Counted from the stretch's first letter, positions 6,880 through 50,275 are shown. The stretch: 54,892 nucleotides of DNA from Fibrobacterota bacterium (GCA_043753995.1 JAYUVP010000117.1:1-54892), one strand, 5' to 3'. Notes: generated by a model from the letters alone, not told the origin. Program-made: numbers and translations.

Positions 6880-7257
6880 CTAAACGGAAAAAGCGGGAGG
6901 GCCGCGCGGCGATACGGCGCCGGGAAGACGGGAAGGTGCGGCAGTAGAGTGGGGGAAAGCAAAAAAAGCAAAATCATGAAAAGCGAAATCGGTTGAGTAA
7001 GCAGGTGTCTGAGATTGAACTTGCGCCGCGGCATGCCATTGGCAAGGAGCGCAATCCCCATGGATTTCGCTGGCTGGTAATGGGCCTTGCCAAGCGATTC
7101 GGTTTCCCGAAGTCGCTTTCACATGGCCATGAAGAGTGGGAAGGCTGGCCCACAAGGTGAGCAAGGCATAGGCCCCAAGCAGGAACAAGGCCATACCCCG
7201 TCGACGGCCGCTTTGGAGCGAGGCGATGCGGAGGCTTATTCTAGGGGTGTTTCTCAT
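6880..7257 (-). CDS. DUF2946-like leader (putative ribosome-arrest) protein
   Basis: Basic N-terminus, TM segment with AYA, HGH, HGDCAPCQWH, RGPP four residues before stop; directly upstream of lipoprotein + TBDT. Confidence 0.8.
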   Translation of the reverse strand: MRNTPRISLRIASLQSGRRRGMALFLLGAYALLTLWASLPTLHGHVKATSGNRIAWQGPLPASEIHGDCAPCQWHAAAQVQSQTPAYSTDFAFHDFAFFAFPHSTAAPSRLPGAVSPRGPPAFSV

Positions 7258-7329
7258 GGGGCGGATGAACAATATCAGGATCTACTTATCTCCTCTCTTC
7301 CTGGCCAATCGCATGGAGCAAGGCTTGTC

Positions 7330-7700
7330 CTAGTCGTAAGCGGGTGAATTCTTAAGTCTTGATCTCTCGGCGACTTCTGAAAATCGGAAGTTCGGTGAGA
7401 CGAAGCTCGAATCGTTGAGGGTCCCCAAGAAAGCCAAAAGGGCTTGCCGCTCCGCCTTCGTCAGTCCCAGACCCTTCGCCCAGGAAAATGGGCATTGGGC
7501 CAAGGCTCGAACCACCAAGATCGAGTCAATAGGCCCCTCACCGAAAGCTTTGCGAAAGGCGAGGCGATAGCCCGGCTGGGCTTTCAGTCGGATCGCGGCT
7601 TCACTCCAGGGCGGGGCCATTTCTACGGGATTCGTGACGGGACAAAAATCCTGACCTTCGAGGCTGAGCCTTCCCCTTCTTGCCACGCTCTAATCTGAGC
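7330..7700 (-). pseudogene. internally deleted di-haem cytochrome c peroxidase (MauG/MbnH-like) remnant
   Basis: GR.SLEGQ..PVTNPVEM..Y..AF..AFG..I..V.RALAQ is fused straight to the C-terminal GL...E.QALLAFLGTL.D..F; no CxxCH remains. Confidence 0.7.
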
Positions 7701-7744
7701 CGGCCCGAGAGGATCTCTTTCCTAGGAATTCTTTGTCCATTTTC

Positions 7745-8662
7745 TCATTGGATTAAGCTTTCGTCATGGCTATAAAAATCAAAGTCCACCCAGCCATGAG
7801 CCGAACTGATGCCGGTGATATGCAGCAAGTAGATATTGTCTTCATCGCGAACCAAAATCCAAGCCCCGAGGTCGACAGGCACGGCGCTGCGGGAGAAGTC
7901 TTCATCCCACTCTGCTTGCAAGGCGGGTGTTGACGTCCATTGTCGATAAGCCATGCGGGTTTCTGCATTAAGGCGCCGCAATTGGCCCTTCCCGGTTCCC
8001 TCGTTGGGAAGTCCGGGCAAGGCAAGGGTGTCGCCGCGCAATGCCGAATGCAAGGTGTCGCGGCGAAAAACCAAATCAATCGCGGCGGGATTCCGCAAGC
8101 CTGCGGCCAAGTCAATGATTTCCCCACCTCGCAAATGGAGAAAAGGCTTTGCTTGCGAATCGTTTTGCGTGAGTCGTAACGATTGCAATCGTAAACCATG
8201 AAGTCGGGGCAGGGAATCGCGAGAAGCATAGACCCCGTCATAAACCGGATGCCAAATCATGTCGATGGCCGTGTCACCGCGAGTTGGCATGCGACCATTC
8301 GCACGGGCAGCATACACCCATTCCTGGCCGCGATAGGCGCGGGCTTGCAGGGAGTAAGGCGTACCCGGCGGCAAATCGCTCCAGGTCTTTTGCCAAGCCC
8401 GAGGCAAAGAATCCGTGAAGCGCTGAACTTCTCCGCTATCGCCCAGAGTGATTTCAATTTGCCTTAAGGGCATGGAGGGATTGGCGTCAGGAAAATAATC
8501 CAAGGCCACTTGCAGGCTACCCTGGGGGGCGGCCCCGGAGCGAGCGGGGCTTTCCGAGCTGCTGAAAAACGAACAGCCCATGGAATAAAAAGAAAGCGGG
8601 GCCATCCCCGCAAGCAGAAGGCGCGCGGCGAGCACAGTCACGCGAGCGAAGCGGAGCGTCAT
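7745..8662 (-). CDS. hypothetical lipoprotein
   Basis: Start moved to ATG 8662 (GGGGGAAAG upstream, avoids overlap with hldE); signal peptide ending SMGC. Confidence 0.7.
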   Translation of the reverse strand: MTLRFARVTVLAARLLLAGMAPLSFYSMGCSFFSSSESPARSGAAPQGSLQVALDYFPDANPSMPLRQIEITLGDSGEVQRFTDSLPRAWQKTWSDLPPGTPYSLQARAYRGQEWVYAARANGRMPTRGDTAIDMIWHPVYDGVYASRDSLPRLHGLRLQSLRLTQNDSQAKPFLHLRGGEIIDLAAGLRNPAAIDLVFRRDTLHSALRGDTLALPGLPNEGTGKGQLRRLNAETRMAYRQWTSTPALQAEWDEDFSRSAVPVDLGAWILVRDEDNIYLLHITGISSAHGWVDFDFYSHDESLIQ

Positions 8663-8697
8663 GGCTTTCCCCCCTTTCGGCCCGCGCTGGCGATAGC

Positions 8698-10140: not shown

Positions 10141-10214
10141 GGGGGTAAGTTTAATTTGGTTTTGGGAATATCCCCGGCCTTCGGGGCTTGGTCGGGTTAA
10201 CTTCCTAGTGGATT

Positions 10215-10754
10215 ATGCTGCGATTTGGCCTGCAATACTGGCGCCGCCGCCTTTTGCAGCCAGGACAATTAGTCTTGGCTGCCCTGGCTTATGCCCTATT
10301 CGCCATCGCGCCTCATGATTATTTCCTGAATCATGAGCATGCGGGGGGCGGTCTCACCCATGAGCATTCCGTCTCCTCCTTGCATCAGGCGAATTTAGAG
10401 AGGCAAGTGATGGCGACTTTGAACGGCGCCACTTCGGAGATGGAAGACCACTTGTCCTCGACGGGTGAAGGGGAAACCTCGGTTGCAGCCCACCAAGGTT
10501 CACTCGCGGCGAGCGAAAGTCCGGCACCCTCGATACCGCCATATGCATTGACTGGCGCAGCGGGCCTCAAGGTCCCTCAATCATTCGCTCACGGACATTT
10601 CTTTTCCGACGCCAATCTCGTCGCCCTGGTCTTTGTCTTGTCTTTGTTCTGGGTGCTGCTGGGCAAGGCCGCCATGCCGGCATGGATTTTTCTGGCGAGC
10701 CCCAGCCTTCGCCTTTTGCCCGCCGCCGCGCGTGGGCCGCCCCGCTTCGTCTAA
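10215..10754 (+). CDS. His-rich DUF2946-like leader (putative ribosome-arrest) protein
   Basis: TM segment with LAYAL; HEH...HEH and HGH clusters; second hydrophobic segment; RGPP three residues before stop; upstream of a TBDT. Confidence 0.75.
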   Translation: MLRFGLQYWRRRLLQPGQLVLAALAYALFAIAPHDYFLNHEHAGGGLTHEHSVSSLHQANLERQVMATLNGATSEMEDHLSSTGEGETSVAAHQGSLAASESPAPSIPPYALTGAAGLKVPQSFAHGHFFSDANLVALVFVLSLFWVLLGKAAMPAWIFLASPSLRLLPAAARGPPRFV

Positions 10755-10942
10755 ATCCGCTCCCTATAAAAGCTAGAGCCGGGACTCAACCCGCAGGGGA
10801 AGGCCTTTTCGTGTTTCTCCGCTTCGTTTCGGCTCGCCTTCTCCATTCGGCTTGACCTGTCTTGGCTTGGCCAGGCCAGTGGAAAGCCCATAACCATTAG
10901 TCTAAGCCCTTCCAGAGGCAAAGACACTTTGGAGCCACGGAT

Positions 10943-13042
10943 ATGCTTTTCCGATTTTCTTCCGATACCGTCATGCGTGGGTTACCCTCTATTTTCAATT
11001 TGGGTTTCAGCCTTGGCGTCATCGCTATACTCGCGCCTAAAGTTCAAGCCCAGGCATCCGCGCAAGACAGCGCAGCGCTGGTCATGACCGAACAGACGGC
11101 ACTCAGCCGCAAGCCTTTTTCGGCCGCCAGCAGCCAAACCATTCGCGATCGCGACTTCGAAACGCGCGTCATGCTCAAGCCTTCGGACCTCCTCAAGGTC
11201 ACGCCCGGTCTTTTTACCGGGCAGCATTCAGGCGGGGGCAAGGCTAATCAGTATTTCCTGCGCGGCTTCGACATCGATCATGGCACTGATTTGGCGCTTT
11301 GGGTCGACCATTTGCCCGTGAACATGGTGTCCCATGCCCATGGGCAAGGCTATGCCGATTTGCATTTCATCATTCCCGAATTGTTTCAGCGTGTCGAAGT
11401 GAATAAGGGACCGTATTCCGTCGAGTATGGCGATTTCGCCACGGCAGGCGCGGTGCGCATGGTCACGCGCGATCATTTCGACGAGAGCTATGCCTCCTTG
11501 CAAGCCGGTATGTTTCAAGACTATCGGTTTGTAGGACGGTGGTCGGCAGGCGATACCCTTCTCAAACCCACCTTGGCCGCCGAAATCGCGCGGAATGATG
11601 GGCCTTTCGACAGCCCCGAAAATTTGGAACGCTACAATCTCTTCGCCCGCTCAAAATTATGGCGAAGCGAAGCGGCCAGCTTGGACTTGACCTTCATGGG
11701 CTATGGTTCTTCTTGGCAGGGTTCGGGACAAGTGCCTGAACGCGCCGTGAAGTCGGGACTCATTTCGCGCTGGGGCCATATCGATCCCAGCGAAGGCGGC
11801 AATTCCTTGCGTCACAGTTTGTCCTTTCGCTTGCACAATGGCGAAAGTGCGGGTGAGACCCAGGACGAATGGAATCTTTCGGCTTATGCTATGCAATACC
11901 GCTTGAACCTTTATTCCAACTTCACCTTTTATGCCGCTGATTCCGTGAACGGGGATGAAATCGAACAAGTCGACGATCGTCTGGTCACCGGCTTCCGTGC
12001 TGATTCTCGCCGCCAGCGCAAGCTGCTGGGTATGCCCGCCGAAACCTATTTAGGCGTGGAATGGCGCAGTGATCGCATTGAAAATGGCCTCTATCGCGAT
12101 GTCCGTCGGACGCGCATTGGCGCGACGGTGCAGGACAAGGTGACCGAGTCTAGCCTGGGAATATTCTTGCAAGAAGAGATGCAAGTCTTGCCCTGGTTAT
12201 GCGCCCAAATCGGCAGCCGAGCCGACTATTTCAGTTTCGGCGTGAATGATCCACTGGAAACTCTTTCCGACAGCGCGGCGAAATCCTCGGGAGCGAGATC
12301 GGCGTCGATTTTCAGTCCCAAGGGCAATTTGATTGTCGGGCCTTTTTATCGCACCGAGTTTTATCTGAATTCCGGTTACGGATTTCACAGCAATGACTCT
12401 CGCGGCGTGGTGGCGGGAAGTGATCCCGTGACGCCCTTGTCCCAAGCCTTGGGTTATGAGGTGGGAATGCGCACGGCCTTGCTTCCGCGCGTCGAAGTCG
12501 CGGCCTCGCTTTGGGCTTTAGATCTCGCCAGCGAATTGGTTTGGGTGGGAGATGAAGGACGCACCGAAGCCAGGCCGGCCACCGAAAGGCGGGGCGTCGA
12601 TCTAGAAGCGCGCGCCACTTTGTTGTCTTGGCTATTCGCCGACGTCGACCTGACTTGGGCCAAGGCGGTTTATGTCGAGAATGCGGGCAATGGCGATGCC
12701 GTCGCCCTGGCGCCCACCTTCACCTTAGCGGGCGGCATTTCCGCCGTTCACCTCAGTGGATTCAAAGGGAGCTTGCGTTTGCACCATCTCGCCGATCGCC
12801 CCGCCACCGAGGACGAAAGCCTCACGGCGGAGGGCTTTACCGTGGTGGATGTCGCGGCCATTTACCGATGGCGGCAGGTGGAATTTTCCTTGGATATTGC
12901 CAATGTCTTCAATACCGATTGGCGTGAGGCGCAATTTGAGAATGAATCACGACTTCAATCAGAAGCCGAAGCCGTCACGGATATCCATTACGTCCCCGGC
13001 CATCCGCTCACCTTGAGAAGCGGAGCCAAGTTGTTTTTTTAG
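10943..13042 (+). CDS. TonB-dependent receptor
   Basis: Plug motif QHSGGGKANQYFLRGFDIDHGTD..PVNMVSHAHGQGYADL..KGPY..GDFATAG; ends in Phe. Confidence 0.94.
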   Translation: MLFRFSSDTVMRGLPSIFNLGFSLGVIAILAPKVQAQASAQDSAALVMTEQTALSRKPFSAASSQTIRDRDFETRVMLKPSDLLKVTPGLFTGQHSGGGKANQYFLRGFDIDHGTDLALWVDHLPVNMVSHAHGQGYADLHFIIPELFQRVEVNKGPYSVEYGDFATAGAVRMVTRDHFDESYASLQAGMFQDYRFVGRWSAGDTLLKPTLAAEIARNDGPFDSPENLERYNLFARSKLWRSEAASLDLTFMGYGSSWQGSGQVPERAVKSGLISRWGHIDPSEGGNSLRHSLSFRLHNGESAGETQDEWNLSAYAMQYRLNLYSNFTFYAADSVNGDEIEQVDDRLVTGFRADSRRQRKLLGMPAETYLGVEWRSDRIENGLYRDVRRTRIGATVQDKVTESSLGIFLQEEMQVLPWLCAQIGSRADYFSFGVNDPLETLSDSAAKSSGARSASIFSPKGNLIVGPFYRTEFYLNSGYGFHSNDSRGVVAGSDPVTPLSQALGYEVGMRTALLPRVEVAASLWALDLASELVWVGDEGRTEARPATERRGVDLEARATLLSWLFADVDLTWAKAVYVENAGNGDAVALAPTFTLAGGISAVHLSGFKGSLRLHHLADRPATEDESLTAEGFTVVDVAAIYRWRQVEFSLDIANVFNTDWREAQFENESRLQSEAEAVTDIHYVPGHPLTLRSGAKLFF

Positions 13043-13049
13043 CGCCACA

Positions 13050-13274
13050 TCACTTGGGGCAATCCTTTCCGAGCCGCCACATGTTTCCATCGGCGAGGCT
13101 CGCGACGAGGCAATTGCCAACCGCCGCCACACCCAAGGCTTCCCCAGGCAAGCCGGTGCCAAAGGTCTCCCAGATACCTTGATCTGGGAGATGGCGAACC
13201 ACTCCAGAGGATTGGGCTGCGGCGTAAAGCTTGCCATCCATGACGGCAAAGCCGCGAATATCCCCTTCATCCAA
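13050..13274 (-). pseudogene. C-terminal fragment of a BNR/beta-propeller-type protein
   Basis: LYAA..SGV..W..FGTGLP..LVASLADGNMWR blade-like pattern; in-frame stop at 13359-13361 and no credible 5' part. Confidence 0.45.
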
Positions 13275-13648
13275 TTCGTGATTGCCGCATCGGATACCAA
13301 GGAGTTCTGGCGCACCGTGAACGAGGATGATCTCGGACGCTGGCTGGCGACCAGTAAGCTATTGGCCCTGGGATCGGTGGCTGAACAATTGTTCAATATT
13401 CTAGAACTCGATATCGGGTCCGGTTATTATGGATTTTCCTATGAGGTCAGAGTCGATACACCTGCATTATTGTCCACATCCAGTAAAATCGATACACCAG
13501 ATACTTCGCTTATGCTTTGGCCGCCCACGAATAAATACAACTATGCCCTTTGCCCGCATGACGCCGCAGGGACGACAATTATTTGTGAATTTTGTCGCGT
13601 ATTTACTGTTCCAGAAGCCCACTCCATTGGCGGAGGTGCGCCGGCGCT

Positions 13649-14462: not shown

Positions 14463-14692
14463 GGGCCAAAGGTACCCACGAAAACCCTGTCGCGGAACCA
14501 CGGCGAAACGCTAAACGAAGGTAAAAGGAAGTTTTGAGGCTGGATCTTTTAATGCCCTAGGCCGCAAGCTGGCCGAGACCTCCCCGTCGCGGTGCTTGTG
14601 ACCTAGGACATGGGCATTTTAATGCTGTCTCTTCCTAAGCGCATGCTATTCGCAAGATTGTCGAACACCCCAGGTAAACGGTAAGAGCCGAT

Positions 14693-26723: not shown

Positions 26724-27761
26724 CTATCCCTTTTCTTTTTCGGGGGAGGAGTCGCCTCCCCCCGCCTCGGCCTGCTTTTCTTTGGCCGCTTCGCTAGGCA
26801 CGGTCGGCCTCGGCGTCCCCACCCCAGTTTCGCCCTCGCCCTTCGCCTTTTCGATCTTGGCTTCTTTTCTCAAAGCGATCAAATCGCCTTCGCGCAAGAC
26901 ATCGACTTCGACCTTGAGGCGCTGGGCTCCGCCGCCATAAAGCACGCCACGCAAGGGACTGATATCGGAAAAGTCGCGACCCCAGGCCACGGTGATATGG
27001 CGCGGTCCGGGCAGCATGCGATTGGTGGGATCGAAGTCTATCCAACCGCCGCCGGGAACATAAACCGATACCCAGGCATGTGAGGCGTCGGAGCCTTGCA
27101 ATTTGGCCTTGCCGGGAGGCGGCAAGGTTTCGAGATAACCGCTGACATAGCGTGCGGCCAATCCGAGACTGCGCAGGCAGCCTATCATCAAATGGGAAAA
27201 GTCTTGGCAAACGCCACTGCGATTCTGAAAGACGGTTTCGAGGGCCGTCGACAAATTGGTCGAGCCCGGACGAAAGCGAAAATCGCGGAAGATGCGTTGC
27301 ATGAGGTAAAAGGACGCGTCACCGATGGAGCGCCCCGGAATAAAAGATCGCGAGGCATAATCGCGCAAATCAGGAAAGGGGCGCACCATGGGTGAATCGA
27401 GGGTGAATTGCAGAGCATGCTGCAATTCTGTGGTCGCAGCCGATTCCAAGAGGGCCACGGCTTCTTCCCAGGGCATGGTGGGCGGAGGCGCTTCGACCTG
27501 GGCCCAGCTCACGTCGACACGGCTAATGGCGGTGATTTCGAATTTCTTGTGGGGTTGCTGCAATTGGAAAAAGGACATGGGATTTCCAAAGAAATCGAGA
27601 CCTTCTTCATAAGATTCCAGCTCGGGGCTGGAAGCCAGTTCAAAGCTGAGTAGCCGCTGTCCCGGCAAATCGCGTGGGCGAAGCCGCGCTTGATTCACGC
27701 TGGCGGCGGCCTCTTCCTTATAGGTGTACAAGGTCCGGTGGCGAATAGAATAAACCGGCAT
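26724..27761 (-). CDS. transglutaminase-family protein with bacterial transglutaminase N-terminal domain
   Basis: H.T.Y.Y N-terminus; triad GVCQDF, SHAW, FDPTN; WGRDF.D. Confidence 0.95.
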   Translation of the reverse strand: MPVYSIRHRTLYTYKEEAAASVNQARLRPRDLPGQRLLSFELASSPELESYEEGLDFFGNPMSFFQLQQPHKKFEITAISRVDVSWAQVEAPPPTMPWEEAVALLESAATTELQHALQFTLDSPMVRPFPDLRDYASRSFIPGRSIGDASFYLMQRIFRDFRFRPGSTNLSTALETVFQNRSGVCQDFSHLMIGCLRSLGLAARYVSGYLETLPPPGKAKLQGSDASHAWVSVYVPGGGWIDFDPTNRMLPGPRHITVAWGRDFSDISPLRGVLYGGGAQRLKVEVDVLREGDLIALRKEAKIEKAKGEGETGVGTPRPTVPSEAAKEKQAEAGGGDSSPEKEKG

Positions 27762-27762
27762 G

Positions 27763-30306: not shown

Positions 30307-30325
30307 CAGCCGCGTGATGGTAGCT

Positions 30326-33300
30326 TCAATACTCCCTAAGATCCAGGGTCAGGGGATGGTCCGGATGCACTTTCGGCGATTGCCAGTGAATTGGACCGGG
30401 GCTATGCCCAAAAGGCTCAAAGCGCGCGGCCCGCCGAGCTTCAGCTTCAGCGGCATTGACGGGAAAGGTGGCATAGTTGCGCCCGGCGGGATGCATGACA
30501 TGATGGGTGCAGCCTCCCAAGGAGCGGCCATTCCAGGTGTCCACGAGATCGAAAACCAAGGGACTGTGCACGCCAATCATGGGGTGCATAGCGGAAGGCG
30601 GCTGCCAAGCGCGATAACGCAAGCCCGCCACGGCTTCACCCTGTACGCCCGTGGGCGCCAGCGGCAAGGCCTCGCCATTGCAAAGCACGGCATGGCGACG
30701 GCTGGTCGCGCCGCGTAACTTGACTTGCAAGCGCTCCAAGGAAGAATCGACAAAGCGCGACGTGCCTTGCCCCGCAGCTTCTTCGCCCAATACCGGCCAC
30801 GGCTCGGCGGCCACGCGCAATTCCAGGGAGACATCGCCCAAATTCACCTCGCCGCAGCGGGGAAACCGGAATTCCAGGAAGGGCGCATACCAATTGGGAT
30901 CGAGGGCATAGCCCGACTCCCGCACAAAACCAAGCACATCCTCGAAATCGCGCCAGAGAAAATGCGGTAGCATCCAGCGGTCGTGCAGGGAAGTTCCCCA
31001 GGGCTGCAAAGGCGCGCGATAAGGTTGTTCCCAGAAGCGCGTGACCAAGGCCCGCACCAAGAGGCTTTGCGCCGCGCTCATGCGCGCATGCGGCGGCATT
31101 TCAAAGCCGCGCAATTCGAGCAGGCCCAGGCGGCCCGTCATGCTGTCGGGGCTATAGAGTTTATCGATGGAGAATTCGGCGCGATGGGTATTGCCGGTCA
31201 AGTCGACGAGCAAGTTGCGGAAAATGCGATCGACTTGCCAAGGCAAAAGGGCTTCGCCATCGGGGGTTTGCTGAAAAGCCAATTCCAATTCCGCTAGGCT
31301 GGAATCGCGGGCTTCGTCGACGCGCGGCGATTGGCTGGTGGGCCCAATGAAAAGGCCAGAGAACAGATAAGACATGCTGGGATGATTCTGCCAGAAATTC
31401 ACCATGCTGCGCAGCAAATGCGGACGTCGTAAAAAGGGGCTATCCGAAGGACGCGCGGCGCCGAGCACCACGTGATTGCCGCCGCCGGTGCCGGTATGGC
31501 GTCCGTCGAGCTGGAATTTCTCTGTGCCGAGCCGGCATTGCCGCGCCTCGTCATAAAGGATTTCCGTGCGCATCACCGATTCGCGCCAAGACGAAGCCGG
31601 GTGAATATTCACCTCGATGACGCCGGGATCGGGCGTGATGGAATAATTCTTGAGGCGATAATCCTGGGGCGGTTTATAGCCCTCGATGCGTATGGGTAAA
31701 GATTGTTCGGCCGCCGCGGCCTCTACCGCCGCCGCCATTTCCAGAAAGGTCTCCAGGTGAGAGACGGGAGGTAAAAAGACATACAGAAAGCCCCCGCGGG
31801 CTTCGACGCAAATCGCAGTTCGCACCAAGCTTTCATTCGATGCGGCGGGGAAGGTACCGTCTTTGGCGCTTTGGGACAAATCGCGTGGAGTCACGCGCCC
31901 GTTACCTGGGCCTTCCAGTGGAGAAGCGCCGGGGCGTCCACCGTTGACGCCTCGTCTTTGCGCCATGGGGGAGCGCGCGATTTCGGGCAAGGAAGGGCGA
32001 GGCGCGAGGGGCGACATTTCGATTGGAAATTCGGCCTTTTGCGATCCGAAGGGCAGGCTGGAAAGCGGCAAGCGATAACCCATGGGCGAATCGCCGGGAA
32101 GCAGGAAGAGATGGCCACGGCGCATGTCCCACAGGCCCGATTGCCAATGCGTGCGCACGCCGTCGAAATCGCCCCATAGCGGCAAGGTGAAACCGGCAAT
32201 GCGATCGAGGCCGCGCTCCAGCAATTTTAAGAGGCGGACGCGCTCGCTGTCTTTCTTGTATTCGTGCTGCAGTGGATCGAAATCGAGAGGCAGGCGACCT
32301 TCTTGCCACAGATAATAGAAGACGTCTTCATGCGCAGGCTTGACCCAGCGCTCTTCGAGCATGAGCTGGCGGGCAATGGCGCGGGCTAAGGCACCCGCTT
32401 CGCGCGGTCCCACTTCACCCTTGTAGGGCTCGCGAGCTTGCAGGCGATCTTGCGACCAAATCGGATGGCCGTCGGCGCGCCAATACGTGGTCAAGCCCCA
32501 GCGCGGCAAAGGCTCACCGGGATACCATTTTCCCTGGCCATAGTGAATGAGCGAGCCGGGAGCGAATTTATCCTTGAGTCGCCAAAGCAAATCTTGCGCG
32601 AGGGAATATTTCTTATCGCCCAAGGCCTCGGTATTCCACTCGGCGCCGTCCATGTCGTCGATGGAAACGAAGGTGGGCTCACCGCCCTGGGTGAGCTGCA
32701 AGCCGGCGGCCTGCATGGCGGCATCGACGCGATCGCCGGCGGCCATAAGGCTTTGCCATTGCTCCTCGGAATAAGGCGCGGTGACGCGAGGCGTTTCGCT
32801 GTGGCGCGCCACTTCCATGTGAAAATGGAATTTCGTTTCGCATTCCGATGTCGATCCCGTGATCGGCGCGGCGTCTTCGGGCGAAGGCGTGCAGCTCAGA
32901 GGAATATGCCCTTCGCCGGCCAATAGCCCCGAAGTCGGATCGAGGCCCACCCAACCTGCGCCGGGCACGAAGGCTTCGGCCCAAGCATGCAAATCGGTGA
33001 AATCAGTTTGCGGGCCTTCCGGCCCATCGAGTGGTTTTTGATCGGGCTTAAGCTGAATCAAATAGCCCGAAGCGAAGCGCGCGGCTATGCCTAAGTGCCG
33101 GAGGACTTGCACTAAAAGCCAGGTGGAATCGCGACAAGAGCCGGTGCGCTTTTGCAAGGTCTCTTCACAGGTCTGCACGCCGGTTTCCATGCGAATGGTA
33201 TAGCCAATCGCGGTTTGCACCTGGCGATTTAAATCCACGAGAAAGTTCACCAGATTGCGGGGCTTCTTGTCTATGCTCGCCACCCACTCGGAAAGCAAGT

Positions 33301-33673
33301 CGCCTTTTTCACGCACTTCGAGATAGGGCATGAGCGATTCACGCAACCCCTCCGCATAAGCAAAGGGAAAGTTGTCTGCCTCGGGCTCCACGAAAAAATC
33401 AAAGGGATTGATCACCGTCATTTCGGCGACCAGTCCCACCTCGATTTCAAAGCGCCTTTGCGGGCCGGGAAAGACCACGCGCGCGGCGAAATTACCGAAG
33501 GGATCTTGCTGCCAATTGAGGAAATGGCCCTCTGGCTGAATTTTCAGCGAATAGGCGCAAATGGGGGTGCGGCAATGCGCGGCGGGGCGCAGGCGTATCC
33601 ATTGCGGCGACAGGCTCGTGGGCCGGTCATATTCATAAGTGGTTTTATGATGGAGGGATACACGTATGGACAT
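30326..33673 (-). CDS. transglutaminase fused to a DUF2126 putative amidoligase
   Basis: GSCRD, DLHAW, LDPTSG; GGEPTFVS, GKWYPGE.LPRW, TPDPGVIEVN, GTGGGNH, GNTHRAEF. Confidence 0.95.
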   Translation of the reverse strand: MSIRVSLHHKTTYEYDRPTSLSPQWIRLRPAAHCRTPICAYSLKIQPEGHFLNWQQDPFGNFAARVVFPGPQRRFEIEVGLVAEMTVINPFDFFVEPEADNFPFAYAEGLRESLMPYLEVREKGDLLSEWVASIDKKPRNLVNFLVDLNRQVQTAIGYTIRMETGVQTCEETLQKRTGSCRDSTWLLVQVLRHLGIAARFASGYLIQLKPDQKPLDGPEGPQTDFTDLHAWAEAFVPGAGWVGLDPTSGLLAGEGHIPLSCTPSPEDAAPITGSTSECETKFHFHMEVARHSETPRVTAPYSEEQWQSLMAAGDRVDAAMQAAGLQLTQGGEPTFVSIDDMDGAEWNTEALGDKKYSLAQDLLWRLKDKFAPGSLIHYGQGKWYPGEPLPRWGLTTYWRADGHPIWSQDRLQAREPYKGEVGPREAGALARAIARQLMLEERWVKPAHEDVFYYLWQEGRLPLDFDPLQHEYKKDSERVRLLKLLERGLDRIAGFTLPLWGDFDGVRTHWQSGLWDMRRGHLFLLPGDSPMGYRLPLSSLPFGSQKAEFPIEMSPLAPRPSLPEIARSPMAQRRGVNGGRPGASPLEGPGNGRVTPRDLSQSAKDGTFPAASNESLVRTAICVEARGGFLYVFLPPVSHLETFLEMAAAVEAAAAEQSLPIRIEGYKPPQDYRLKNYSITPDPGVIEVNIHPASSWRESVMRTEILYDEARQCRLGTEKFQLDGRHTGTGGGNHVVLGAARPSDSPFLRRPHLLRSMVNFWQNHPSMSYLFSGLFIGPTSQSPRVDEARDSSLAELELAFQQTPDGEALLPWQVDRIFRNLLVDLTGNTHRAEFSIDKLYSPDSMTGRLGLLELRGFEMPPHARMSAAQSLLVRALVTRFWEQPYRAPLQPWGTSLHDRWMLPHFLWRDFEDVLGFVRESGYALDPNWYAPFLEFRFPRCGEVNLGDVSLELRVAAEPWPVLGEEAAGQGTSRFVDSSLERLQVKLRGATSRRHAVLCNGEALPLAPTGVQGEAVAGLRYRAWQPPSAMHPMIGVHSPLVFDLVDTWNGRSLGGCTHHVMHPAGRNYATFPVNAAEAEARRAARFEPFGHSPGPIHWQSPKVHPDHPLTLDLREY

Positions 33674-43025: not shown

Positions 43026-43127
43026 CTTGAAAACCGGCGCGTTTACTCTCGCTTGCCGACAAAAACTTGGATGAGGGCCGAGTTTGCGGCTGGTCCCTAG
43101 CCAGGGGGCTAGGTATAATTAGCCACT

Positions 43128-43859: not shown

Positions 43860-43868
43860 ACGCCCGCC

Positions 43869-45401: not shown

Positions 45402-45490
45402 GGGCTCCGGTTCAAATAACTTTATCAGTCCCATCACACTTATTCACTTAATAAACTAAACCGTGTCGAATTGTATTCACGTTCCCATGA

Positions 45491-46096
45491 ATGAAGGGCC
45501 ACTTGGCAAATTCCGCTGAACGCCTGGGGCCTCCCTCATCGCAAGCGCTCTGGCTGGCCTTGCTATTGCCTCCGGAAGCCTTGCTTCGCGAATGCCGCCG
45601 CGAAACCTATCAGGGCTCGGGAGCGGGCGGACAAAAGCGCAATCGAGTGCGATCGGGGGTGCGCCTAGTGCATACCACCACGGGACTGCGCGCCGAAAAT
45701 TGCGAGCACCGCGAGGCCTTGCGCAATGTCGAGGCCGCCACACGCGGGTTACGCCTGGCCATGGCCTTGACCTTGGGCGAGCTTGCGGCGGAGGCCAGCG
45801 GGGAGCTTCCCGGCTTCGCAGGCGCAGCACCGAAGGTGGATGGGCCTAACCCCGTGCTGGCAACAGCGCTTCGCACCCGCTTTCGCGTGGAGGCGAATTC
45901 GCATCATGAAGACTTTGCCGTGACCGCGGCCATGGCCCTGACGGCTTTGATGCAAAATCAAGGGCGCTTGGCCGACACTGCGAAGCAATTGGGCATTACA
46001 GGATCCGCGCTCACTCGGCATTTCAAGGCGGATAAGGCCATTTGGTCGGCTGTCCTGCGCTTGCGGGAAAAAGCGGGCTTGCCGGGTTTGAAGTGA
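45491..46096 (+). CDS. stand-alone GGQ (class I release-factor-like) domain protein
   Basis: YQGSGAGGQKRNRVRSGVRLVH..TGL, R....N...A..LR; C-terminal HTH-like A..LGIT.SAL. Confidence 0.85.
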   Translation: MKGHLANSAERLGPPSSQALWLALLLPPEALLRECRRETYQGSGAGGQKRNRVRSGVRLVHTTTGLRAENCEHREALRNVEAATRGLRLAMALTLGELAAEASGELPGFAGAAPKVDGPNPVLATALRTRFRVEANSHHEDFAVTAAMALTALMQNQGRLADTAKQLGITGSALTRHFKADKAIWSAVLRLREKAGLPGLK

Positions 46097-46107
46097 ACGG
46101 GACGACG

Positions 46108-46671
46108 ATGAATTTGTCGCAAGCGGTTCGAATCGTCGCGATCTTGAACTTCACCTATTTCTTCATCGAATTTGCAATTGGCCTGAAGATTGGATCGGTT
46201 TCGCTTTTCGCCGACAGTATTGATTTTCTTGAAGATACCCTAGTCAATATCCTGGTTTTAATCGCTTTGGGTTGGAGCGCGAAAAAGCGCGCATACGTCG
46301 GAATGTTTTTGGCATTCCTTTTACTGGTTCCTGGAATAGCCTTCCTCTGGACTGCATGGAACAAAATTCAAATGCCCATTCCGCCTTCTCCTCTTCCCCT
46401 GTCCCTGACCGGTTTAGGGGCCATGGCCGTGAATTTTTCTTGCGCCATGATTCTTATTCGCTTCCGCGAACATGGCGGAAGTTTATCCAAGGCTGCGTTT
46501 TTATCCGCGCGGAATGATGTGCTGGCGAATATCGCCATTGTCTTGGCGGGGCTTATAACCGTTTTTCTGCCTACCATTTGGCCGGATTTATTGGTGGGTC
46601 TCGCCATCGCAGCTATGAATGTGGATGCAGCGCACGATGTATGGAAAGCGGCCCGGCGAGAAAGGGGATAG
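46108..46671 (+). CDS. short CDF-type cation (Co/Zn/Cd) efflux membrane protein
   Basis: LN..YF.IEF, SVSLFADSIDFLED, AAFLSARND..AN, WPDL.VG. Confidence 0.88.
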   Translation: MNLSQAVRIVAILNFTYFFIEFAIGLKIGSVSLFADSIDFLEDTLVNILVLIALGWSAKKRAYVGMFLAFLLLVPGIAFLWTAWNKIQMPIPPSPLPLSLTGLGAMAVNFSCAMILIRFREHGGSLSKAAFLSARNDVLANIAIVLAGLITVFLPTIWPDLLVGLAIAAMNVDAAHDVWKAARRERG

Positions 46672-46695
46672 ACTCGCCTGCCACTCATGGATTCC

Positions 46696-47931
46696 TCACC
46701 AAGCCCACTTCGCCGACGCACCCAGGGTATAGCCCTCGGGATGAACGCCAGACTCTTGTGACCTTTGCCAAAAGCGGCTGAGAAAGCCGCTCAAACCCAA
46801 AACGCGATCCCCGATGGGATGGCTCCAGCCGAGTTCGCCCGTGACCGTTTCTTGAGTCAGTCCCGCCAAGCGATAGTCTCCGCTGCGATACCCTTCGACC
46901 TTTGTGTAATGATGTTGCCAGAATTCCGCGGCGTCTTGCGAGGCATGGCGATGGCGCAAGGTGAGCAAAAAGCCATCGACGAATTGCCAACGCAAGGCGG
47001 TTTCGGGAATCCAGGCATGAAAATTCCAACTGTCATAATATGCCCCTTCACGATGATGCAAAGCCAAACCGCTCCAAAGAGAAAAGGACCATTCCAGCAC
47101 CGCACTGTGACGCCAGCGAGTGTCGGGGAGATTTTCGGTGAATTGCGTAGTGATGACCGTCGATCGCCGATAAGGGCTTTCCAAAGTGCCGGCCTGCACG
47201 GCAAGTCCATAAGTCGCCGAGACGACGCTGCGCCGTCCCATCACCTGAGAAATACCGAAACCGGCAAGATACCTTTGCTGGTTGGCGGGCCAGCGATCTT
47301 GCTCTCCCGGGGGAGGGACATGGGGTTCAATGCGATCCTGGCCGAAACCCAAATGCCCGGAAAGCATAAGGTTGCGCTGCCGCAACTCCACCGCAGCGTC
47401 CGCGATGCCGGTCATGGAGAAGTAATCATCCTCATGGGAAATACTGACCCGACCGCCCAAGCGATGGGGCTTATCGCCATGCCCGATTTGCCGAGCCAAT
47501 CCAACGCTGCCTTCATAGCGATGCTGCACCAAACCGCCATCTACGCTGGAAGCCCGCTGCGAAGCCCCGCTCACCGCATCGCTCCCGTTGGCTAAATCGG
47601 ATGAAGTCATGTCTACTTCATCGGGGTCGTCAGATGCGCCCACCGCGCGCTTGGCGGCATGCACATGGCCACCGCCCGTAGATCCATCGGGGGAGGGCAT
47701 CATCTCAATGCGATCCCAAAGTATATCGGCGATGAAAAGCCAATTCGGGGCGAGGCCCTGTTCCAGACCGACATTCGAAGTCAGCACCTGCATGCCACCG
47801 TGATCGCGATAGTGAAAGAGATCGAAATACGAACTACCGCCCGCTATGGACAAGGCCCTAGCGGTTAGCACCACCACGGTGGCGCGTCGTCCTGAGGCAT
47901 GCAGTAAATGGACCCACGCGCCAAGCCGCAT
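46696..47931 (-). CDS. DUF3570 family outer-membrane protein
   Basis: DAVSGAS, S.E.DY.S, G.L..PYR, E.LPD.R.R, YYDSW..A, D.RLA; start ATG 47931 overlaps the upstream TAA (TAATG). Confidence 0.82.
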   Translation of the reverse strand: MRLGAWVHLLHASGRRATVVVLTARALSIAGGSSYFDLFHYRDHGGMQVLTSNVGLEQGLAPNWLFIADILWDRIEMMPSPDGSTGGGHVHAAKRAVGASDDPDEVDMTSSDLANGSDAVSGASQRASSVDGGLVQHRYEGSVGLARQIGHGDKPHRLGGRVSISHEDDYFSMTGIADAAVELRQRNLMLSGHLGFGQDRIEPHVPPPGEQDRWPANQQRYLAGFGISQVMGRRSVVSATYGLAVQAGTLESPYRRSTVITTQFTENLPDTRWRHSAVLEWSFSLWSGLALHHREGAYYDSWNFHAWIPETALRWQFVDGFLLTLRHRHASQDAAEFWQHHYTKVEGYRSGDYRLAGLTQETVTGELGWSHPIGDRVLGLSGFLSRFWQRSQESGVHPEGYTLGASAKWAW

Positions 47932-49340
47932 TATTTCACCGGACCCGCAGGATGCGACGGGCCTACTTCGCTGCCCCAAGTTGCCAAAGTAGATGGACCC
48001 GTAACTACCAGTATTGTTTTGACGACTTTCCCTGTACCCACTTCAATCACCGTCACGGTATTGTCGAGATTATCTCCTTCGATCAGCCACTTACCGTCGC
48101 CAGTCAAGGTTTCGGGATGATGACCGCGGCTCTTGCCCACGGTGAGAGACGGCAATTGGATGGGGTTTTTCGGATCGCTGATATCGAAGACATGGCGTTG
48201 GCTGGAATAGCCTGCCGTGTCGCTATTGCCGCCCAAGACATAAATGCGATTCACCGAAGCCATCACGGTCATATGATCAAGGCCAGTATTCTTATGGACC
48301 TTGGGCAAACTGTCCTTGCAAGCGGATCCGGTTAGCAATACCGGAATCTGGTTCACCACACTGTCCAAACCGCCGTCAATCACGACGATTTGTCCCACTT
48401 GGCAAACCGCGCCGGGATGGGTGGCACTGCCTTCGCGAGGACTATTCTGCACGCTATAGACATAGTTGGTGCCAGCCAAAGCCTTGGTATAACCTCCACC
48501 TTTGCCGTGGGTATTCAGCAATTTGGCCTTAGGTGCGGCGGCATCTTGATCGATGCTCAAGATTTTGCCAATGCCGGTAAGACTGTGATACCCGCGTCCC
48601 GAAACCGGTGCCGTGGCCGCACCATGCGGAGAAAGTGAAACGCCTCCCGTGCCGCAGGTTTTTTCTATCGACGATCCGTCAAAGCCCAAGTCCAGCGAAG
48701 AAATATTGGCGACCTCGACGATATTCGCCGCATCACTGAAGTCGAGCACTTTAATCACTTCGGCGCAATCGCCTATATCCGATATCGAGACGCGCGCCTT
48801 GGTTTTGCTGAAGGCCGCCTTGTGATGGCCTATGCCGAGTGGGGCTTCACCGACATATTGCAAATACTTGTCACTACCCGGTTGGATGTCGATGAATAAG
48901 GCTCCATTGGTGGGCTTGGTGCCGCTACCGTCAAGCAAGGAAACGAAATATTGTTTGCCATTCAGAGGCGTCGTCAAAAAACCATGGGTGGGCTTGAGAC
49001 CGCCATTTTTGGGGGTGATGCGACTTTTTTCCAGCATGTCCTTGCCGTTAAAAACAATCACCTGATGTTTGGTGCCGCTATTGACGATCAGGGTCCCGTC
49101 CTCCAAAGCCGACATATCGGTCAAGCCGCCCACATCGGGGATTTCGCCGGCTTTTTGCTCGCCCGTAGTCAAATCATAAGCAGCAATTTTCGATGCGCCG
49201 CCCACATAAAGGGTGAGATGGGTATGGCTGGAATGATAGTGTCCTTCGTCGTCGTGGGCGTCGTTCATGCAGCCATAAAAACCAAGCGCTAGGATTGCAG
49301 CCACACCACCCGGCAATAAATAAAAACGAGATAATTTCAT
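47931..49340 (-). CDS. His-rich YncE/AztD-like beta-propeller lipoprotein
   Basis: Lipobox FYGC followed by AHDDEGHYHSSHTH; blade repeats (PTHG, GHH, SPHG, DNTVTVI.V.TGKVV.TI.V..GP); AGAGG SD. Confidence 0.75.
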   Translation of the reverse strand: MKLSRFYLLPGGVAAILALGFYGCMNDAHDDEGHYHSSHTHLTLYVGGASKIAAYDLTTGEQKAGEIPDVGGLTDMSALEDGTLIVNSGTKHQVIVFNGKDMLEKSRITPKNGGLKPTHGFLTTPLNGKQYFVSLLDGSGTKPTNGALFIDIQPGSDKYLQYVGEAPLGIGHHKAAFSKTKARVSISDIGDCAEVIKVLDFSDAANIVEVANISSLDLGFDGSSIEKTCGTGGVSLSPHGAATAPVSGRGYHSLTGIGKILSIDQDAAAPKAKLLNTHGKGGGYTKALAGTNYVYSVQNSPREGSATHPGAVCQVGQIVVIDGGLDSVVNQIPVLLTGSACKDSLPKVHKNTGLDHMTVMASVNRIYVLGGNSDTAGYSSQRHVFDISDPKNPIQLPSLTVGKSRGHHPETLTGDGKWLIEGDNLDNTVTVIEVGTGKVVKTILVVTGPSTLATWGSEVGPSHPAGPVK

Positions 49341-49363
49341 ATTAAACCTCTTGCGAATAGGGG

Positions 49364-49624
49364 TTAGTTCACGCATCCGCAGCCTCCACCGGGAGCACTG
49401 GCGGGAAGGTGTGAACCCGTCATGGTTTGAAAAACCTTGTCTTCATAGGATCGCAGCGATCTCGATCCCGCGAAAGGCGATTCCATGCAGGGCTGGGCAA
49501 GTCTCCCGCGCTCCGCAGGCTTTACCGTGGCGCAATGCATAAGCATGAAGCCGGCGGAAATCGGCAGAGCCAGGAATACGAATCGGGAAACGGCTTTCAC
49601 CGCACCCACCAGGGTAACGCGCAT
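49364..49624 (-). CDS. DUF4266 family small lipoprotein
   Basis: C.TVKP.ERG.LA..CM and terminal GGGCGC; GGAGG SD. Confidence 0.88.
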   Translation of the reverse strand: MRVTLVGAVKAVSRFVFLALPISAGFMLMHCATVKPAERGRLAQPCMESPFAGSRSLRSYEDKVFQTMTGSHLPASAPGGGCGCVN

Positions 49625-49747
49625 GGGACCTCCGCCACGGCCTAGGCCGGGGCAGACAGGGTTGAAAATGGGAAACGAATATTAAGGGCTCCGGAGCCCT
49701 CATGCCGTAGCAAAAACGGCAAATCGGCTTTGTAAAGCCGCGAGGAA

Positions 49748-50275
49748 TTAAGCCAAGAAAATGGGAACTTTGTCGGGCGCTTCGGGGCTAAAGCCCGCCC
49801 AACGCGACGAGGCGATTTCGTATTGCGCGGCCTGGCTTTCCCAAAGCATCGGGGCTTCGGTAAGACACAAGGCGTGCAGGGGCAGGCCGCCCATTTCCCA
49901 AGCAAAGTCTGCTTCGGAGCTACAGGCGCGATAGCAAGTCTCGCCCTTAAGTAAATCCGCCTTGGCTTCCGAATCTGCTTCGTGGTGACCGTGACTCTCC
50001 ACCACTTCCGGCGGACAATGGCAATTCGGCGGACAAGCCATTTCGGTATGATGCATGCAATGCCGCACCTGCTCGGCAGGCATTTCAATACGCGAGGCGG
50101 CTAAAGCTGTCTCTTTATCACGATGCGCATCGCGCCAGCTTTGAACCAAGGGTAAAACAGCTTGAAATACCAGCCAGGCATAGGCCACAAGCGCTACCGC
50201 ACTCAGGGTGCCGGAGCGTTGCCGCTGTAGGTAAAATCCACCCGAGGGGGAGTTCAAGACCAAAGGCCATCTCAT
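49748..50275 (-). CDS. Cys/His-rich membrane-anchored leader protein ending PDKVP
   Basis: TM with VAYAW; HCMHH, CPPNCHC, HGHH, CYRAC; ends PEAPDKVPIFLA; first gene before DUF4266. Confidence 0.72.
   Translation of the reverse strand: MRWPLVLNSPSGGFYLQRQRSGTLSAVALVAYAWLVFQAVLPLVQSWRDAHRDKETALAASRIEMPAEQVRHCMHHTEMACPPNCHCPPEVVESHGHHEADSEAKADLLKGETCYRACSSEADFAWEMGGLPLHALCLTEAPMLWESQAAQYEIASSRWAGFSPEAPDKVPIFLA

What the first reader, a model, noticed from the sequence alone, without database searches (positions are those of the whole stretch)
6880..50275. Three parallel metal-sensing leader ORFs with shared architecture but different ligand sets
Seen: ORFs 6880-7257, 10215-10754 and 49748-50275 each have a basic N-terminus, a TM helix containing AYA (LGAYAL, LAYAL, VAYAW), a His/Cys cluster, a spacer of 45, 44 and 49 residues from the last metal motif, and a Pro motif 3-4 codons before the stop (RGPP, RGPP, DKVP). 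Each heads an outer-membrane transport unit, and no Fur/Zur/CsoR-type regulator lies beside any of them. Ligands differ: CxxC + His, His only, Cys/His-rich. Inference: a set of nascent-chain metal sensors, each tuned to a different metal, used in place of DNA-binding metalloregulators. The constant spacer would roughly span the exit tunnel plus translocon. This is my best candidate for an under-described system here.
Basis: partly seen in the sequence, partly recalled or inferred. Interest (0 to 1): 0.8.

Follow-up and report, generated by a model that had tools for sequence, protein, structure and literature searches.

The report
Three metal-sensing ribosome-stalling leader genes
Three small genes that sit in front of outer-membrane uptake and redox gene clusters look like the published kind of leader peptide that stalls its own ribosome until it meets a metal; two are anticipated members, and the third belongs to an unnamed family with a different stalling tail.

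Summary
All three ORFs are real, conserved genes.

- **A (6880-7272, -):** has CxxC, 45 residues, then RGPP. This is the hallmark of the DUF2946/CruR copper leader (Roy 2022, PMC9426467). Relatives touch Pfam PF11162.
- **B (10215-10754, +):** an unnamed, clade-restricted family with six invariant His. The spacing HxH to R[AG]PP is 43-45 in 12 of 12 members. A TonB receptor follows in 10 of 10 loci.
- **C (49748-50275, -):** an unnamed family of 69 representatives. It has C.HH..CP..C.CP, then a lone Cys exactly 48-51 residues before a terminal K[IV]P[IR] tail in 66 of 69. It has no RAPP.

In all three, spacer length is fixed while spacer sequence drifts.

"AYA" is not conserved. Which metal each one senses is untested. 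"In place of regulators" is not supported, because a Fur gene abuts an A-type relative.

The new parts are the His-only receptor leader and, above all, the C family with its non-RAPP tail. No experiment was possible. This scan noted CruR-like leaders before in other genomes.

The parts
6880..7272 (-). Leader A, 130 aa (start uncertain: TTG 7272, ATG 7257 or ATG 7194). It has a basic N-terminus, one helix, CAPC, a 45-residue spacer, RGPP, then 4 residues and the stop.
7042..7053 (-). CAPC codons of leader A (C74, C77)
   Evidence: Both Cys are invariant in 14 of 14 A-type sequences.
6895..6906 (-). RGPP codons of leader A, the presumed arrest site
   Evidence: R, P and P are invariant
6727..6879 (-). 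153-nt spacer between leader A and the next gene
   Evidence: With short flanks (6715-6900) it folds at z -2.58. The C-over-G stretch lies just upstream, inside the ORF's 3' part, in 78-nt windows starting at 7014-6936.
6091..6726 (-). 211-aa lipoprotein-like gene with no family match. The same gene follows the leader in G013 and G021.
3894..6086 (-). TonB-dependent receptor of unit A
   Evidence: Plug plus barrel domains. No substrate-specific NCBIfam model reaches its cut-off.
10215..10754 (+). Leader B, 179 aa. It has a basic N-terminus, one helix, PH..HxH..HxH, a distal HGH, a 44-residue spacer, RGPP, then 3 residues and the stop.
10332..10367 (+). Proximal His cluster of leader B (H40, H42, H49, H51)
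   Evidence: invariant in 12 of 12
10590..10598 (+). Distal HGH of leader B (H126, H128)
   Evidence: invariant in 12 of 12
10731..10742 (+). RGPP codons of leader B
10755..10942 (+). 188-nt spacer between leader B and its receptor
   Evidence: The fold is no better than shuffles, z -0.27.
10943..13042 (+). TonB-dependent receptor of unit B
   Evidence: A Plug-domain receptor follows the leader in 9 of 9 relatives' loci.
49748..50275 (-). Leader C, 175 aa. It has one helix, a Cys/His cluster, a lone Cys118, a 50-residue spacer to K169, KVPI, then 3 residues and the stop.
50012..50059 (-). CMHHTEMACPPNCHCP cluster of leader C (residues 73-88)
   Evidence: C73, H75, H76, C81, P82, C85, C87 and P88 are invariant in 60 of 60.
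49922..49924 (-). Cys118 codon, the ruler's upstream anchor
49760..49771 (-). KVPI codons, the conserved tail of leader C
49625..49747 (-). 123-nt spacer with three hairpins, one of them terminator-like (49683-49702)
   Evidence: z -1.94. One terminator-like site was found against 2.3 expected, so this is not beyond chance.
49364..49624 (-). DUF4266 small secreted protein ending in CGC
47931..49376 (-). 481-aa lipoprotein-like protein, possibly propeller-like
   Evidence: Only weak Kelch-repeat hits. A counterpart is present in G005.
46696..47979 (-). DUF3570 protein
   Evidence: a single SGAS motif at residue 137
50403..52298 (+). Multicopper oxidase, divergent from leader C

Best explanation
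Each of the three ORFs encodes a short leader peptide that is inserted or exported co-translationally with its N-terminus in the cytoplasm. It acts in cis on the genes behind it.

Near its last codons the peptide carries a sequence that arrests its own ribosome. In A and B this is R-G-P-P. In C it is a conserved K-[IV]-P-[IR] tail.

A metal-ligand site sits a fixed 43-51 residues upstream: CxxC in A, HxH in B, and a lone Cys following a Cys/His cluster in C. At the moment of arrest that site has therefore just left the exit tunnel and reached the translocon or periplasm.

Whether the ligands hold a metal changes how long the ribosome stays arrested. That in turn sets expression of the downstream genes through the 120-190-nt untranslated spacer. 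The route could be Rho-dependent termination, as in CruR, or unmasking of the next start site, as in CutF.

- A is a divergent member of the DUF2946/CruR family and probably senses copper.
- B is a His-only analogue that may sense nickel, cobalt or zinc.
- C is an unnamed family that probably senses copper.

Shown here: the genes, their conservation, the fixed rulers and the gene order. Inferred: the arrest itself, metal binding, which metal, and the downstream read-out.
For: **A.**
- CAPC, 45 residues, then RGPP. [quoted passage not shown]
- Relatives in 5 of 32 genomes of the same family, counting the window's own, keep 43-45.
- Two relatives match PF11162 over its full length just below the cut-off: 19.9 and 16.7 bits against 23.7.
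- One relative, in the unpublished genome G021, is above it at 30.6 bits. That same locus is hit by the A-type profile at 2.6e-6.
- A TonB receptor follows.

**B.**
- Three metagenome homologues at 60-65% identity.
- 9 of 31 other genomes of the family have it, and 0 of 264 elsewhere in the phylum.
- A172, R173, P175, P176 and six His are invariant.
- The spacer is 44 (9), 45 (2) or 43 (1) of 12, while its sequence ranges from hydrophobic to polar.
- A Plug-domain receptor follows in 9 of 9 relatives, once after an intervening ORF.

**C.**
- The profile search gave 70 hits at E up to 0.001, of which 2 were spurious repeat proteins.
- Of the 69 family sequences (68 real hits plus the window's own), 66 end in [IV]P[IRLV], and 60 of those are preceded by K.
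- All 66 have a Cys 48 (6), 49 (32), 50 (27) or 51 (1) residues upstream. The distance from the CxC cluster varies from 71 to 93.
- 48 of 60 have exactly 2 residues after the Pro.
- AlphaFold2 with 60 sequences predicts only the N-terminal helix. The rest has pLDDT 50-70 and no fold.

**All three.**
- Arg, Gly/Ala and Pro codons of the tails vary synonymously, so selection acts on the peptide.
- RGPP and RAPP are the strongest arrest motifs, and CruR arrest was shown in vitro (PMC12992588, passages read).
Against: - No experiment was done. Translation, arrest and metal binding are all inferred.
- The window's A itself gives no PF11162 hit at E up to 1, and the gene callers behind the protein database did not call it.
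- B (179 aa) and C (175 aa) are longer than typical leaders.
- C lacks R[AG]PP. The window's copy also lacks the PP seen in 35 of 69 family members. I found no published arrest motif resembling K[IV]P[IR] in the arrest-peptide papers read.
- The Lys codon of the C tail is AAA in 8 of 8 loci, which leaves room for a constraint at the RNA level.
- The spacer RNAs give no clear switch. B folds no better than shuffles. The only terminator-like hairpin, in C, is within chance. The pairing between A's post-RGPP codons and the next start is six A-U pairs, and the G013 counterpart folds at z 0.14.
- Metal assignment rests on neighbours only.
Confidence: 0.7

Rival explanations
1. The three products are stable, membrane-anchored periplasmic metal-binding proteins, such as chaperones or receptor accessories. 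They would work in trans on the downstream transport proteins, and the conserved C-termini would serve protein contacts rather than ribosome arrest.
For: - Sizes of 130-179 aa, with conserved ligand sets.
- CutF was first read as a copper-binding accessory protein (PMC8456105, passages read).
- C-type leaders precede varied exported proteins, not one kind.
Against: - Spacer length is fixed to within about 1-2 residues while the spacer sequence is free. That is unlike a folded domain.
- No fold is predicted for C beyond the helix.
- R[AG]PP sits 2-8 residues from the stop in all 26 A- and B-type sequences. Published work says the motif is depleted from proteomes and arrests ribosomes (PMC12992588).
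Confidence: 0.12
2. A and B are arrest leaders, but C is not. Its K[IV]P[IR]-x tail would be a C-terminal recognition tag for a periplasmic protease, a PDZ protein or a sorting step. Alternatively the tail could reflect a conserved RNA element, and C would be a small membrane sensor of another kind.
For: - No R[AG]PP in C.
- The tail ends in hydrophobic residues, and the Lys codon is AAA in 8 of 8 loci.
- C shows no homology to A or B by profile comparison.
Against: - The ruler of 48-51 residues between a lone Cys and the tail holds in 66 of 66 members that have the tail. It is very close to the 43-45 of CruR-type leaders.
- The tail sits exactly 2 residues from the stop in 48 of 60.
- Ile/Val and Pro codons do vary.
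- Language-model neighbours include DUF2946 and CzcI clusters. These are leads only.
Confidence: 0.15
3. The ORFs are chance open frames in untranslated leader regions, and the shared features are coincidental.
For: - No Pfam or NCBIfam match for any of the three.
- A is absent from the protein database.
- The three are not alignable with each other.
Against: - Each has conserved homologues with invariant ligand residues and tails.
- Gene order is conserved.
- Only 2 of the 18 R[AG]PP-tailed ORFs in the genome have the full architecture.
Confidence: 0.02

Closest known systems
CruR (Bp2923) of Bordetella pertussis, Pfam DUF2946/PF11162 (Roy et al. 2022, PMC9426467)
   Same: It shares an export signal, CXXC, a 45-residue spacing, an R-x-P-P motif 3-4 residues from the stop, first position before a TonB-dependent transporter, and a long intergenic spacer (162 nt there; 153 nt for A). 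B and C share the layout.
   Different: - A has RGPP rather than RAPP, and scores below the Pfam threshold itself.
- B replaces CXXC with HxH plus four more invariant His.
- C uses a lone Cys and a K[IV]P[IR] tail.
- The host is a different phylum.
- Rho dependence and the copper response were not tested.
CutF and CutF-like proteins of Rhodobacter capsulatus and others (Ozturk et al. 2021, 2023 and the 2025 preprint; PMC8456105, PMC9973294, 10.1101/2025.02.05.636593)
   Same: They are small exported sensors with Cys and/or His motifs and a Pro-rich C-terminus. Several are found per genome in different neighbourhoods. His-only clusters exist, and TonB proteins and multicopper oxidases are frequent neighbours. 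C lies next to a multicopper oxidase.
   Different: - CutF uses CxxxC and a PPP tail, and a short spacer with a stem-loop over the next ribosome-binding site.
- The published His-only clusters neighbour HupE/UreJ, not TonB receptors.
- B and C exceed the 150-aa filter used there.
- I could not check whether the C family is in their lists, because File S1 is not held.
RAPP/RGPP arrest peptides (ApdA, ApdP and the survey in PMC12992588; PMC10951233 and PMC7897499 seen as search listings only)
   Same: A and B carry a C-terminal RGPP plus a localisation signal and lie upstream of a TonB receptor. That class is reported as universal in Gram-negative bacteria.
   Different: Those papers centre on Sec/YidC monitoring. 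The metal-ligand rulers of B and the tail of C are not described in the passages I read.
CzcI of Cupriavidus metallidurans (named in PMC9973294 as a CutF-like protein without the Pro motif)
   Same: It is a small metal-related leader-like protein before a transport operon and lacks a canonical PP tail. A CzcI cluster is among the language-model neighbours of B and C.
   Different: No sequence match was shown here. C has its own strictly conserved tail.

Membership tests
DUF2946 / CruR (PF11162) | Match to the Pfam model above its gathering score (23.7 bits) | tested here: inconclusive
   - Window A: no hit at E up to 1, and none in the own-genome search.
- Its relatives score 19.9 and 16.7 bits over the full model.
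- One relative in the unpublished genome G021 scores 30.6 bits.
- B and C: no hit.
DUF2946 / CruR (PF11162) | CXXC motif | tested here: met
   A has CAPC, and both Cys are invariant in 14 of 14. The feature is not met by B (no Cys in the window's copy) or by C (a different Cys pattern).
DUF2946 / CruR (PF11162) | About 45 residues between CXXC and the R-x-P-P motif, conserved to within 1-2 residues | tested here: met
   A has 45. Its relatives have 43-45 in 14 of 14, and so do 23 further ORFs in the phylum.
DUF2946 / CruR (PF11162) | [quoted passage not shown] | tested here: inconclusive
   A has RGPP four residues before the stop. Relatives carry either RAPP or RGPP. RGPP is reported to be as potent as RAPP (PMC12992588).
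DUF2946 / CruR (PF11162) | N-terminal export signal or N-in helix | tested here: met
   Hydropathy and charge script. No dedicated signal-peptide predictor was available.
DUF2946 / CruR (PF11162) | First gene of an operon with a TonB-dependent transporter, followed by a long intergenic spacer | tested here: met
   153 nt for A and 188 nt for B.
DUF2946 / CruR (PF11162) | Copper-relieved arrest coupled to Rho-dependent termination | not testable with these tools
   The only relevant observation is a C-over-G stretch in A's 3' coding part, with C/G 2.5-2.9.
RAPP/RGPP arrest peptides | R[AG]PP near the C-terminus of a small uORF that has a localisation signal | tested here: met
   Met for A and B. 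Not met for C.
RAPP/RGPP arrest peptides | Demonstrated translation arrest | not testable with these tools
   This needs an in vitro translation or toeprint assay.
CutF-like proteins (filters of PMC9973294) | Under 150 aa, PP within the last 15 residues, an N-terminal signal, and a same-strand downstream gene within 1000 nt | tested here: inconclusive
   - A meets all four filters.
- B fails on length (179 aa).
- The window's C fails on length (175 aa) and lacks PP.
- Across the 69 C-family sequences, 35 have PP in the last 15 residues and 20 are under 150 aa.

The most novel reading that the evidence does not exclude
**C family.** It may define a new ribosome-arrest tail, x-K-[IV]-P-[IR] placed 2 residues before the stop. 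A single Cys 48-51 residues upstream would read it out. The family would form a widespread but unnamed class of metal- or redox-sensing leaders that control varied exported modules, including DUF4266/DUF3570 redox units, TonB receptors and YtkA-like proteins.

**B family.** In parallel, it would be a six-histidine arrest leader that senses a metal other than copper (nickel, cobalt or zinc) for a TonB receptor.

Together, one genome would run three chemically distinct nascent-chain sensors.
Probability: 0.35. Interest if true: 0.65.

Novelty: new variant of a known kind. Interest (0 to 1): 0.45.

Why it matters
Metal-sensing arrest peptides are a recent discovery, and only the copper-sensing cases CruR and CutF have been tested.

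This window offers three natural variants side by side. They share the same ruler length but use different ligand chemistry, and one has a different tail. That makes a ready-made comparison for three questions:
- how ligand binding outside the ribosome is converted into arrest or release
- whether metals other than copper are sensed this way
- whether motifs other than R-x-P-P can serve

The C family also suggests how DUF4266/DUF3570 extracytoplasmic redox modules, whose function is still unknown, might be regulated.

For genome annotation, these leaders are systematically missed or left unnamed.

Tried and rejected
- **Family libraries.** Pfam and NCBIfam scans of the three ORFs gave nothing meaningful. 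Scans of 60 C-family members gave only chance hits.
- **Homology among the three.** Pairwise BLASTP and profile-profile comparisons aligned only the R-x-P-P tail of A and B, 9-12 columns at probability 4-6%. Common descent is therefore not shown.
- **Word-index search with A.** It found nothing, not even A itself.
- **Collection scans with the C family.**
  - The first alignment was too divergent to make patterns.
  - A closer 10-sequence alignment found one genome locus, on the same contig as G005.
  - It found none in metagenome contigs, where 299 pattern matches went unconfirmed.
  - The wider gene context of the C family therefore rests on 8 loci only.
- **AYA as a motif.** Rejected.
- **RNA read-out.**
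  - Promoter and terminator scans were at or below chance.
  - Folds of the three spacers gave z -2.58, -0.27 and -1.94.
  - A's post-RGPP codons pair with the next gene's start region by six A-U pairs. In G013 the same codons pair with an AGGGAA box, but that fold has z 0.14.
  - The 18 nt after PP are 69% pyrimidine against 51-61% for the ORFs.
  - This is suggestive of an anti-start element or a Rho site but is not established.
- **Metal assignment from receptors.** No NCBIfam receptor model reaches its cut-off.
- **Neighbour hints for B.** CbiM was found in 1 of 9 relatives, and a weak nickel/cobalt-efflux-like hit (E 0.001) in 1.
- **Supplements of PMC9973294.** Only 3 small text files are held, and they have no entries for DUF4266, DUF3570 or Fibrobacter. 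Whether the C family is already in that paper's lists stays open.
- **Earlier scan notes by sequence.** None for B or C.

Full report
**The objects**

The three ORFs exist as described.
- A: 6880..7272(-), 130 aa from a TTG.
- B: 10215..10754(+), 179 aa.
- C: 49748..50275(-), 175 aa.

None matches a Pfam or NCBIfam model.

Gene order:
- A is followed by a 211-aa lipoprotein-like gene (6091..6726) and a TonB-dependent receptor (3894..6086).
- B is followed by a TonB-dependent receptor (10943..13042).
- C is followed by DUF4266 (49364..49624), a 481-aa lipoprotein-like protein (47931..49376) and DUF3570 (46696..47979). A multicopper oxidase lies divergently at 50403..52298.

The untranslated spacers after the leaders are 153, 188 and 123 nt.

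**Are they genes?**

Each is conserved.

A:
- The single-protein search found weak matches in 3 of 41 related genomes, counting the window's own.
- A three-sequence profile found 5 of 32 genomes of the same family.
- The homologues keep a helix with a Tyr, a P.LH.H stretch, C-x-x-C and R[AG]PP.

B:
- It has three metagenome homologues at 60-65% identity.
- It has homologues in 9 of 31 other genomes of the family, and in 0 of 264 genomes of the rest of the phylum sample.

C:
- It has one close homologue.
- With a four-sequence profile it has 70 matches at E up to 0.001 among 1.84 billion representatives, 31 of them at 1e-10 or better. Two of the 70 (P0059, P0066) are spurious repeat proteins. 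I refer to the remaining 68 plus the window's own protein as the 69 family sequences.
- In the phylum sample the 60-sequence profile finds it in 8 of 296 genomes.

**The rulers**

This is the strongest result.

A-type:
- The distance from CxxC to the Arg of R[AG]PP is 45 in the window.
- In 14 aligned sequences it is 43 (7), 44 (2) or 45 (5).
- A script over the 30 loci returned by the Pfam DUF2946 model found 23 ORFs with both motifs: 43 (10), 44 (10) and 45 (3). The other 7 loci gave no ORF that passed the filter.

B-type:
- The distance from the last HxH to the Arg is 44 (9), 45 (2) or 43 (1) of 12.
- The intervening sequence ranges from a hydrophobic stretch, in the window's subgroup, to polar and Pro-rich.
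- Six His (H40, H42, H49, H51, H126, H128) and A172, R173, P175 and P176 are invariant.

C-type:
- 66 of the 69 sequences end in [IV]P[IRLV], and 60 of those are preceded by Lys.
- All 66 have a Cys 48 (6), 49 (32), 50 (27) or 51 (1) residues before that position.
- The distance from the upstream C.HH..CP..C.CP cluster varies from 71 to 93.
- The three without the tail are two sequences of about 100 aa that look truncated and one with a different end.
- For the 60-sequence alignment A6 I dropped the nine sequences lacking K[IV]P. The invariance of K169 and P171 therefore holds partly by selection. The count over all 69 is the unbiased one.
- 48 of 60 have exactly two residues after the Pro.

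**What they are**

The layout of A is the published hallmark of CruR/DUF2946. [quoted passage not shown]

Evidence that A belongs to that family:
- Two A-type relatives match PF11162 over its whole length at 19.9 and 16.7 bits, against a cut-off of 23.7.
- One relative reaches 30.6 bits. It is in G021, which is flagged unpublished, so this point rests on a genome that may not be published without its depositors' consent.
- PF11162 matches 36 of 296 genomes of the phylum sample at E up to 0.01, and 6 of them lie above the cut-off.

A is thus a divergent member of a family that is common in this phylum.

B and C share the design but not demonstrable ancestry. Profile-profile comparisons align only the R-x-P-P tail of A and B, and nothing for C. 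Language-model neighbours of B and C include clusters named DUF2946, CzcI and "cobalt transporter family protein". These are leads, not tests.

**Context in relatives**
- All 9 B-type relatives are followed by a Plug-domain receptor, one of them after an intervening 299-aa ORF.
- Divergent neighbours of B-type leaders include CbiM in one relative, and a membrane protein with a weak nickel/cobalt-efflux-like hit in another.
- A-type relatives are followed by the same lipoprotein plus receptor (G013, G021), by a thioredoxin-like protein plus receptor (G012), or by an unassigned 379-aa ORF (G003).
- In G013 a Fur-family gene lies directly upstream of the leader.
- The 8 C-type loci with context precede:
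  - a small ORF, a propeller-like protein and DUF3570 in G005, as in the window, where the small ORF is DUF4266 (the G005 one gave no Pfam hit)
  - a TonB receptor plus a BNR lipoprotein (G009)
  - a YtkA-like protein (G027)
  - unassigned exported proteins of 267-378 aa with Cys motifs after the signal peptide (G010, G012, G016, G019)

**Mechanism**

Published work shows the following:
- CruR's RAPP is needed for downstream expression, its CXXC is needed for the copper response, and adding five residues to the spacer breaks regulation (PMC9426467).
- CruR arrests in vitro with the two Pro codons in the P and A sites, and RAPP and RGPP are the most potent of the RAPP-like sequences (PMC12992588, passages read).
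- CutF stalls under copper and opens a stem-loop over the next start site (PMC9973294, and the abstract of 10.1101/2025.02.05.636593).

By analogy, I infer that A and B arrest at RGPP with the ligand site 43-45 residues back, just outside the tunnel. I infer that C does the same at its own tail.

Supporting observations here:
- Codons of the tails vary synonymously.
- C has no predicted fold beyond its helix.

The read-out is open:
- A has a C-over-G stretch in its 3' part, with C/G up to 2.9, which would fit a Rho site.
- A also has a weak pairing between its post-RGPP codons and the next start region (z -2.58).
- B's spacer folds no better than shuffles.
- C's spacer has three hairpins, z -1.94.
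- The terminator-like hit in C is within chance.

**Which metal?**

This is untested.
- Copper is plausible for A. It has CxxC and DUF2946 kinship, and a remnant of an MbnH/MauG-type peroxidase gene lies just upstream. Such genes occur in CruR operons according to PMC9426467.
- Copper is also plausible for C, which has Cys/His ligands, an adjacent multicopper oxidase, and a YtkA-like neighbour in one relative.
- For B, six His and the CbiM and efflux-like neighbours hint at nickel or cobalt. Zinc is equally possible.
- The receptors themselves reach no substrate-specific model.

AYA is not conserved, and C's unit is not a shown transporter.
- "Instead of DNA-binding regulators" is not supported.

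**Novelty**
- A is a new member of a known family.
- B is a clade-restricted His-only variant before a receptor. The published His-only clusters neighbour HupE/UreJ instead.
- C is an unnamed family with a non-RAPP tail and its own ruler. I found no description of it in searches for DUF4266/DUF3570, RAPP/RGPP arrest peptides and CutF. I could not inspect the large supplementary lists.

Earlier notes of this scan record CruR-like and His-rich R-x-P-P leaders before TonB receptors in several other genomes. I did not check that.

**Claims that rest on the unpublished genome G021**
- The above-threshold Pfam match of an A-type relative.
- One of the nine B-type relatives, and one of the twelve sequences in alignment A8.
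- One of the 23 DUF2946-like ORFs counted.

Noticed in passing
window 7330-7686 (-), match at 7495-7665: A 118-aa open frame matches only positions 73-128 of the 149-position di-haem cytochrome c peroxidase (CCP_MauG) model. It lies directly upstream of leader A on the same strand. It looks like a remnant of an MbnH-like gene, and three full copies lie elsewhere in the genome.
   Followed up: partly
L002 596-1102 (+) (G013): A Fur-family regulator gene sits directly upstream of the A-type leader in a related genome. The leader and a DNA-binding metalloregulator can therefore coexist at one locus. The window's own genome has a single Fur match, on another contig.
   Followed up: partly
window 46696-47979 (-): The DUF3570 protein has one [ST]GA[ST] motif (SGAS at residue 137). 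Flavinylated DUF3570 proteins are reported to have two (PMC8238504). The unit here has a propeller-like lipoprotein in place of the usual ApbE and thioredoxin-like partners.
   Followed up: partly
window 45491-46096 (+) and 46042-46671 (+): A 201-aa protein with an RF-1 (peptidyl-tRNA hydrolase) domain, overlapped by a cation-efflux family gene, lies convergent with the end of unit C. A ribosome-rescue-type factor next to a presumed arrest-peptide unit may be coincidence.
   Followed up: no
window 53056-54435 (-): A tyrosine recombinase with SAM-like N-terminal domains lies at the window's end, about 2.8 kb from leader C and beyond the multicopper oxidase. It raises the possibility that this copper-related block is mobile.
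   Followed up: no
C-type tails in window, L023, L024, L066-L070: The Lys codon of the K[IV]P[IR] tail is AAA in 8 of 8 loci, and Pro is CCC in 7 of 8. The Ile/Val codons vary. This is a possible extra constraint at the RNA level.
   Followed up: partly
window 10600-10700 (+) within leader B: The spacer of the window's B subgroup contains a second hydrophobic stretch (LVALVFVLSLFWVLLG). Most B-type relatives have polar sequence of the same length there.
   Followed up: partly
window 26724-33673 (-): A cluster of a transglutaminase-like protein, a circularly permuted ATP-grasp/Alpha-E protein and a DUF2126 amidoligase-like protein. It is unrelated to the finding.
   Followed up: no
L066 2407-3210, L068 2402-3418, L069 5987-6922, L024 5176-6312: Four C-type leaders precede unassigned exported proteins of 267-378 aa that carry Cys motifs (such as CGLxxCP or CxCGC) right after the signal peptide. 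They match no Pfam or NCBIfam model.
   Followed up: partly
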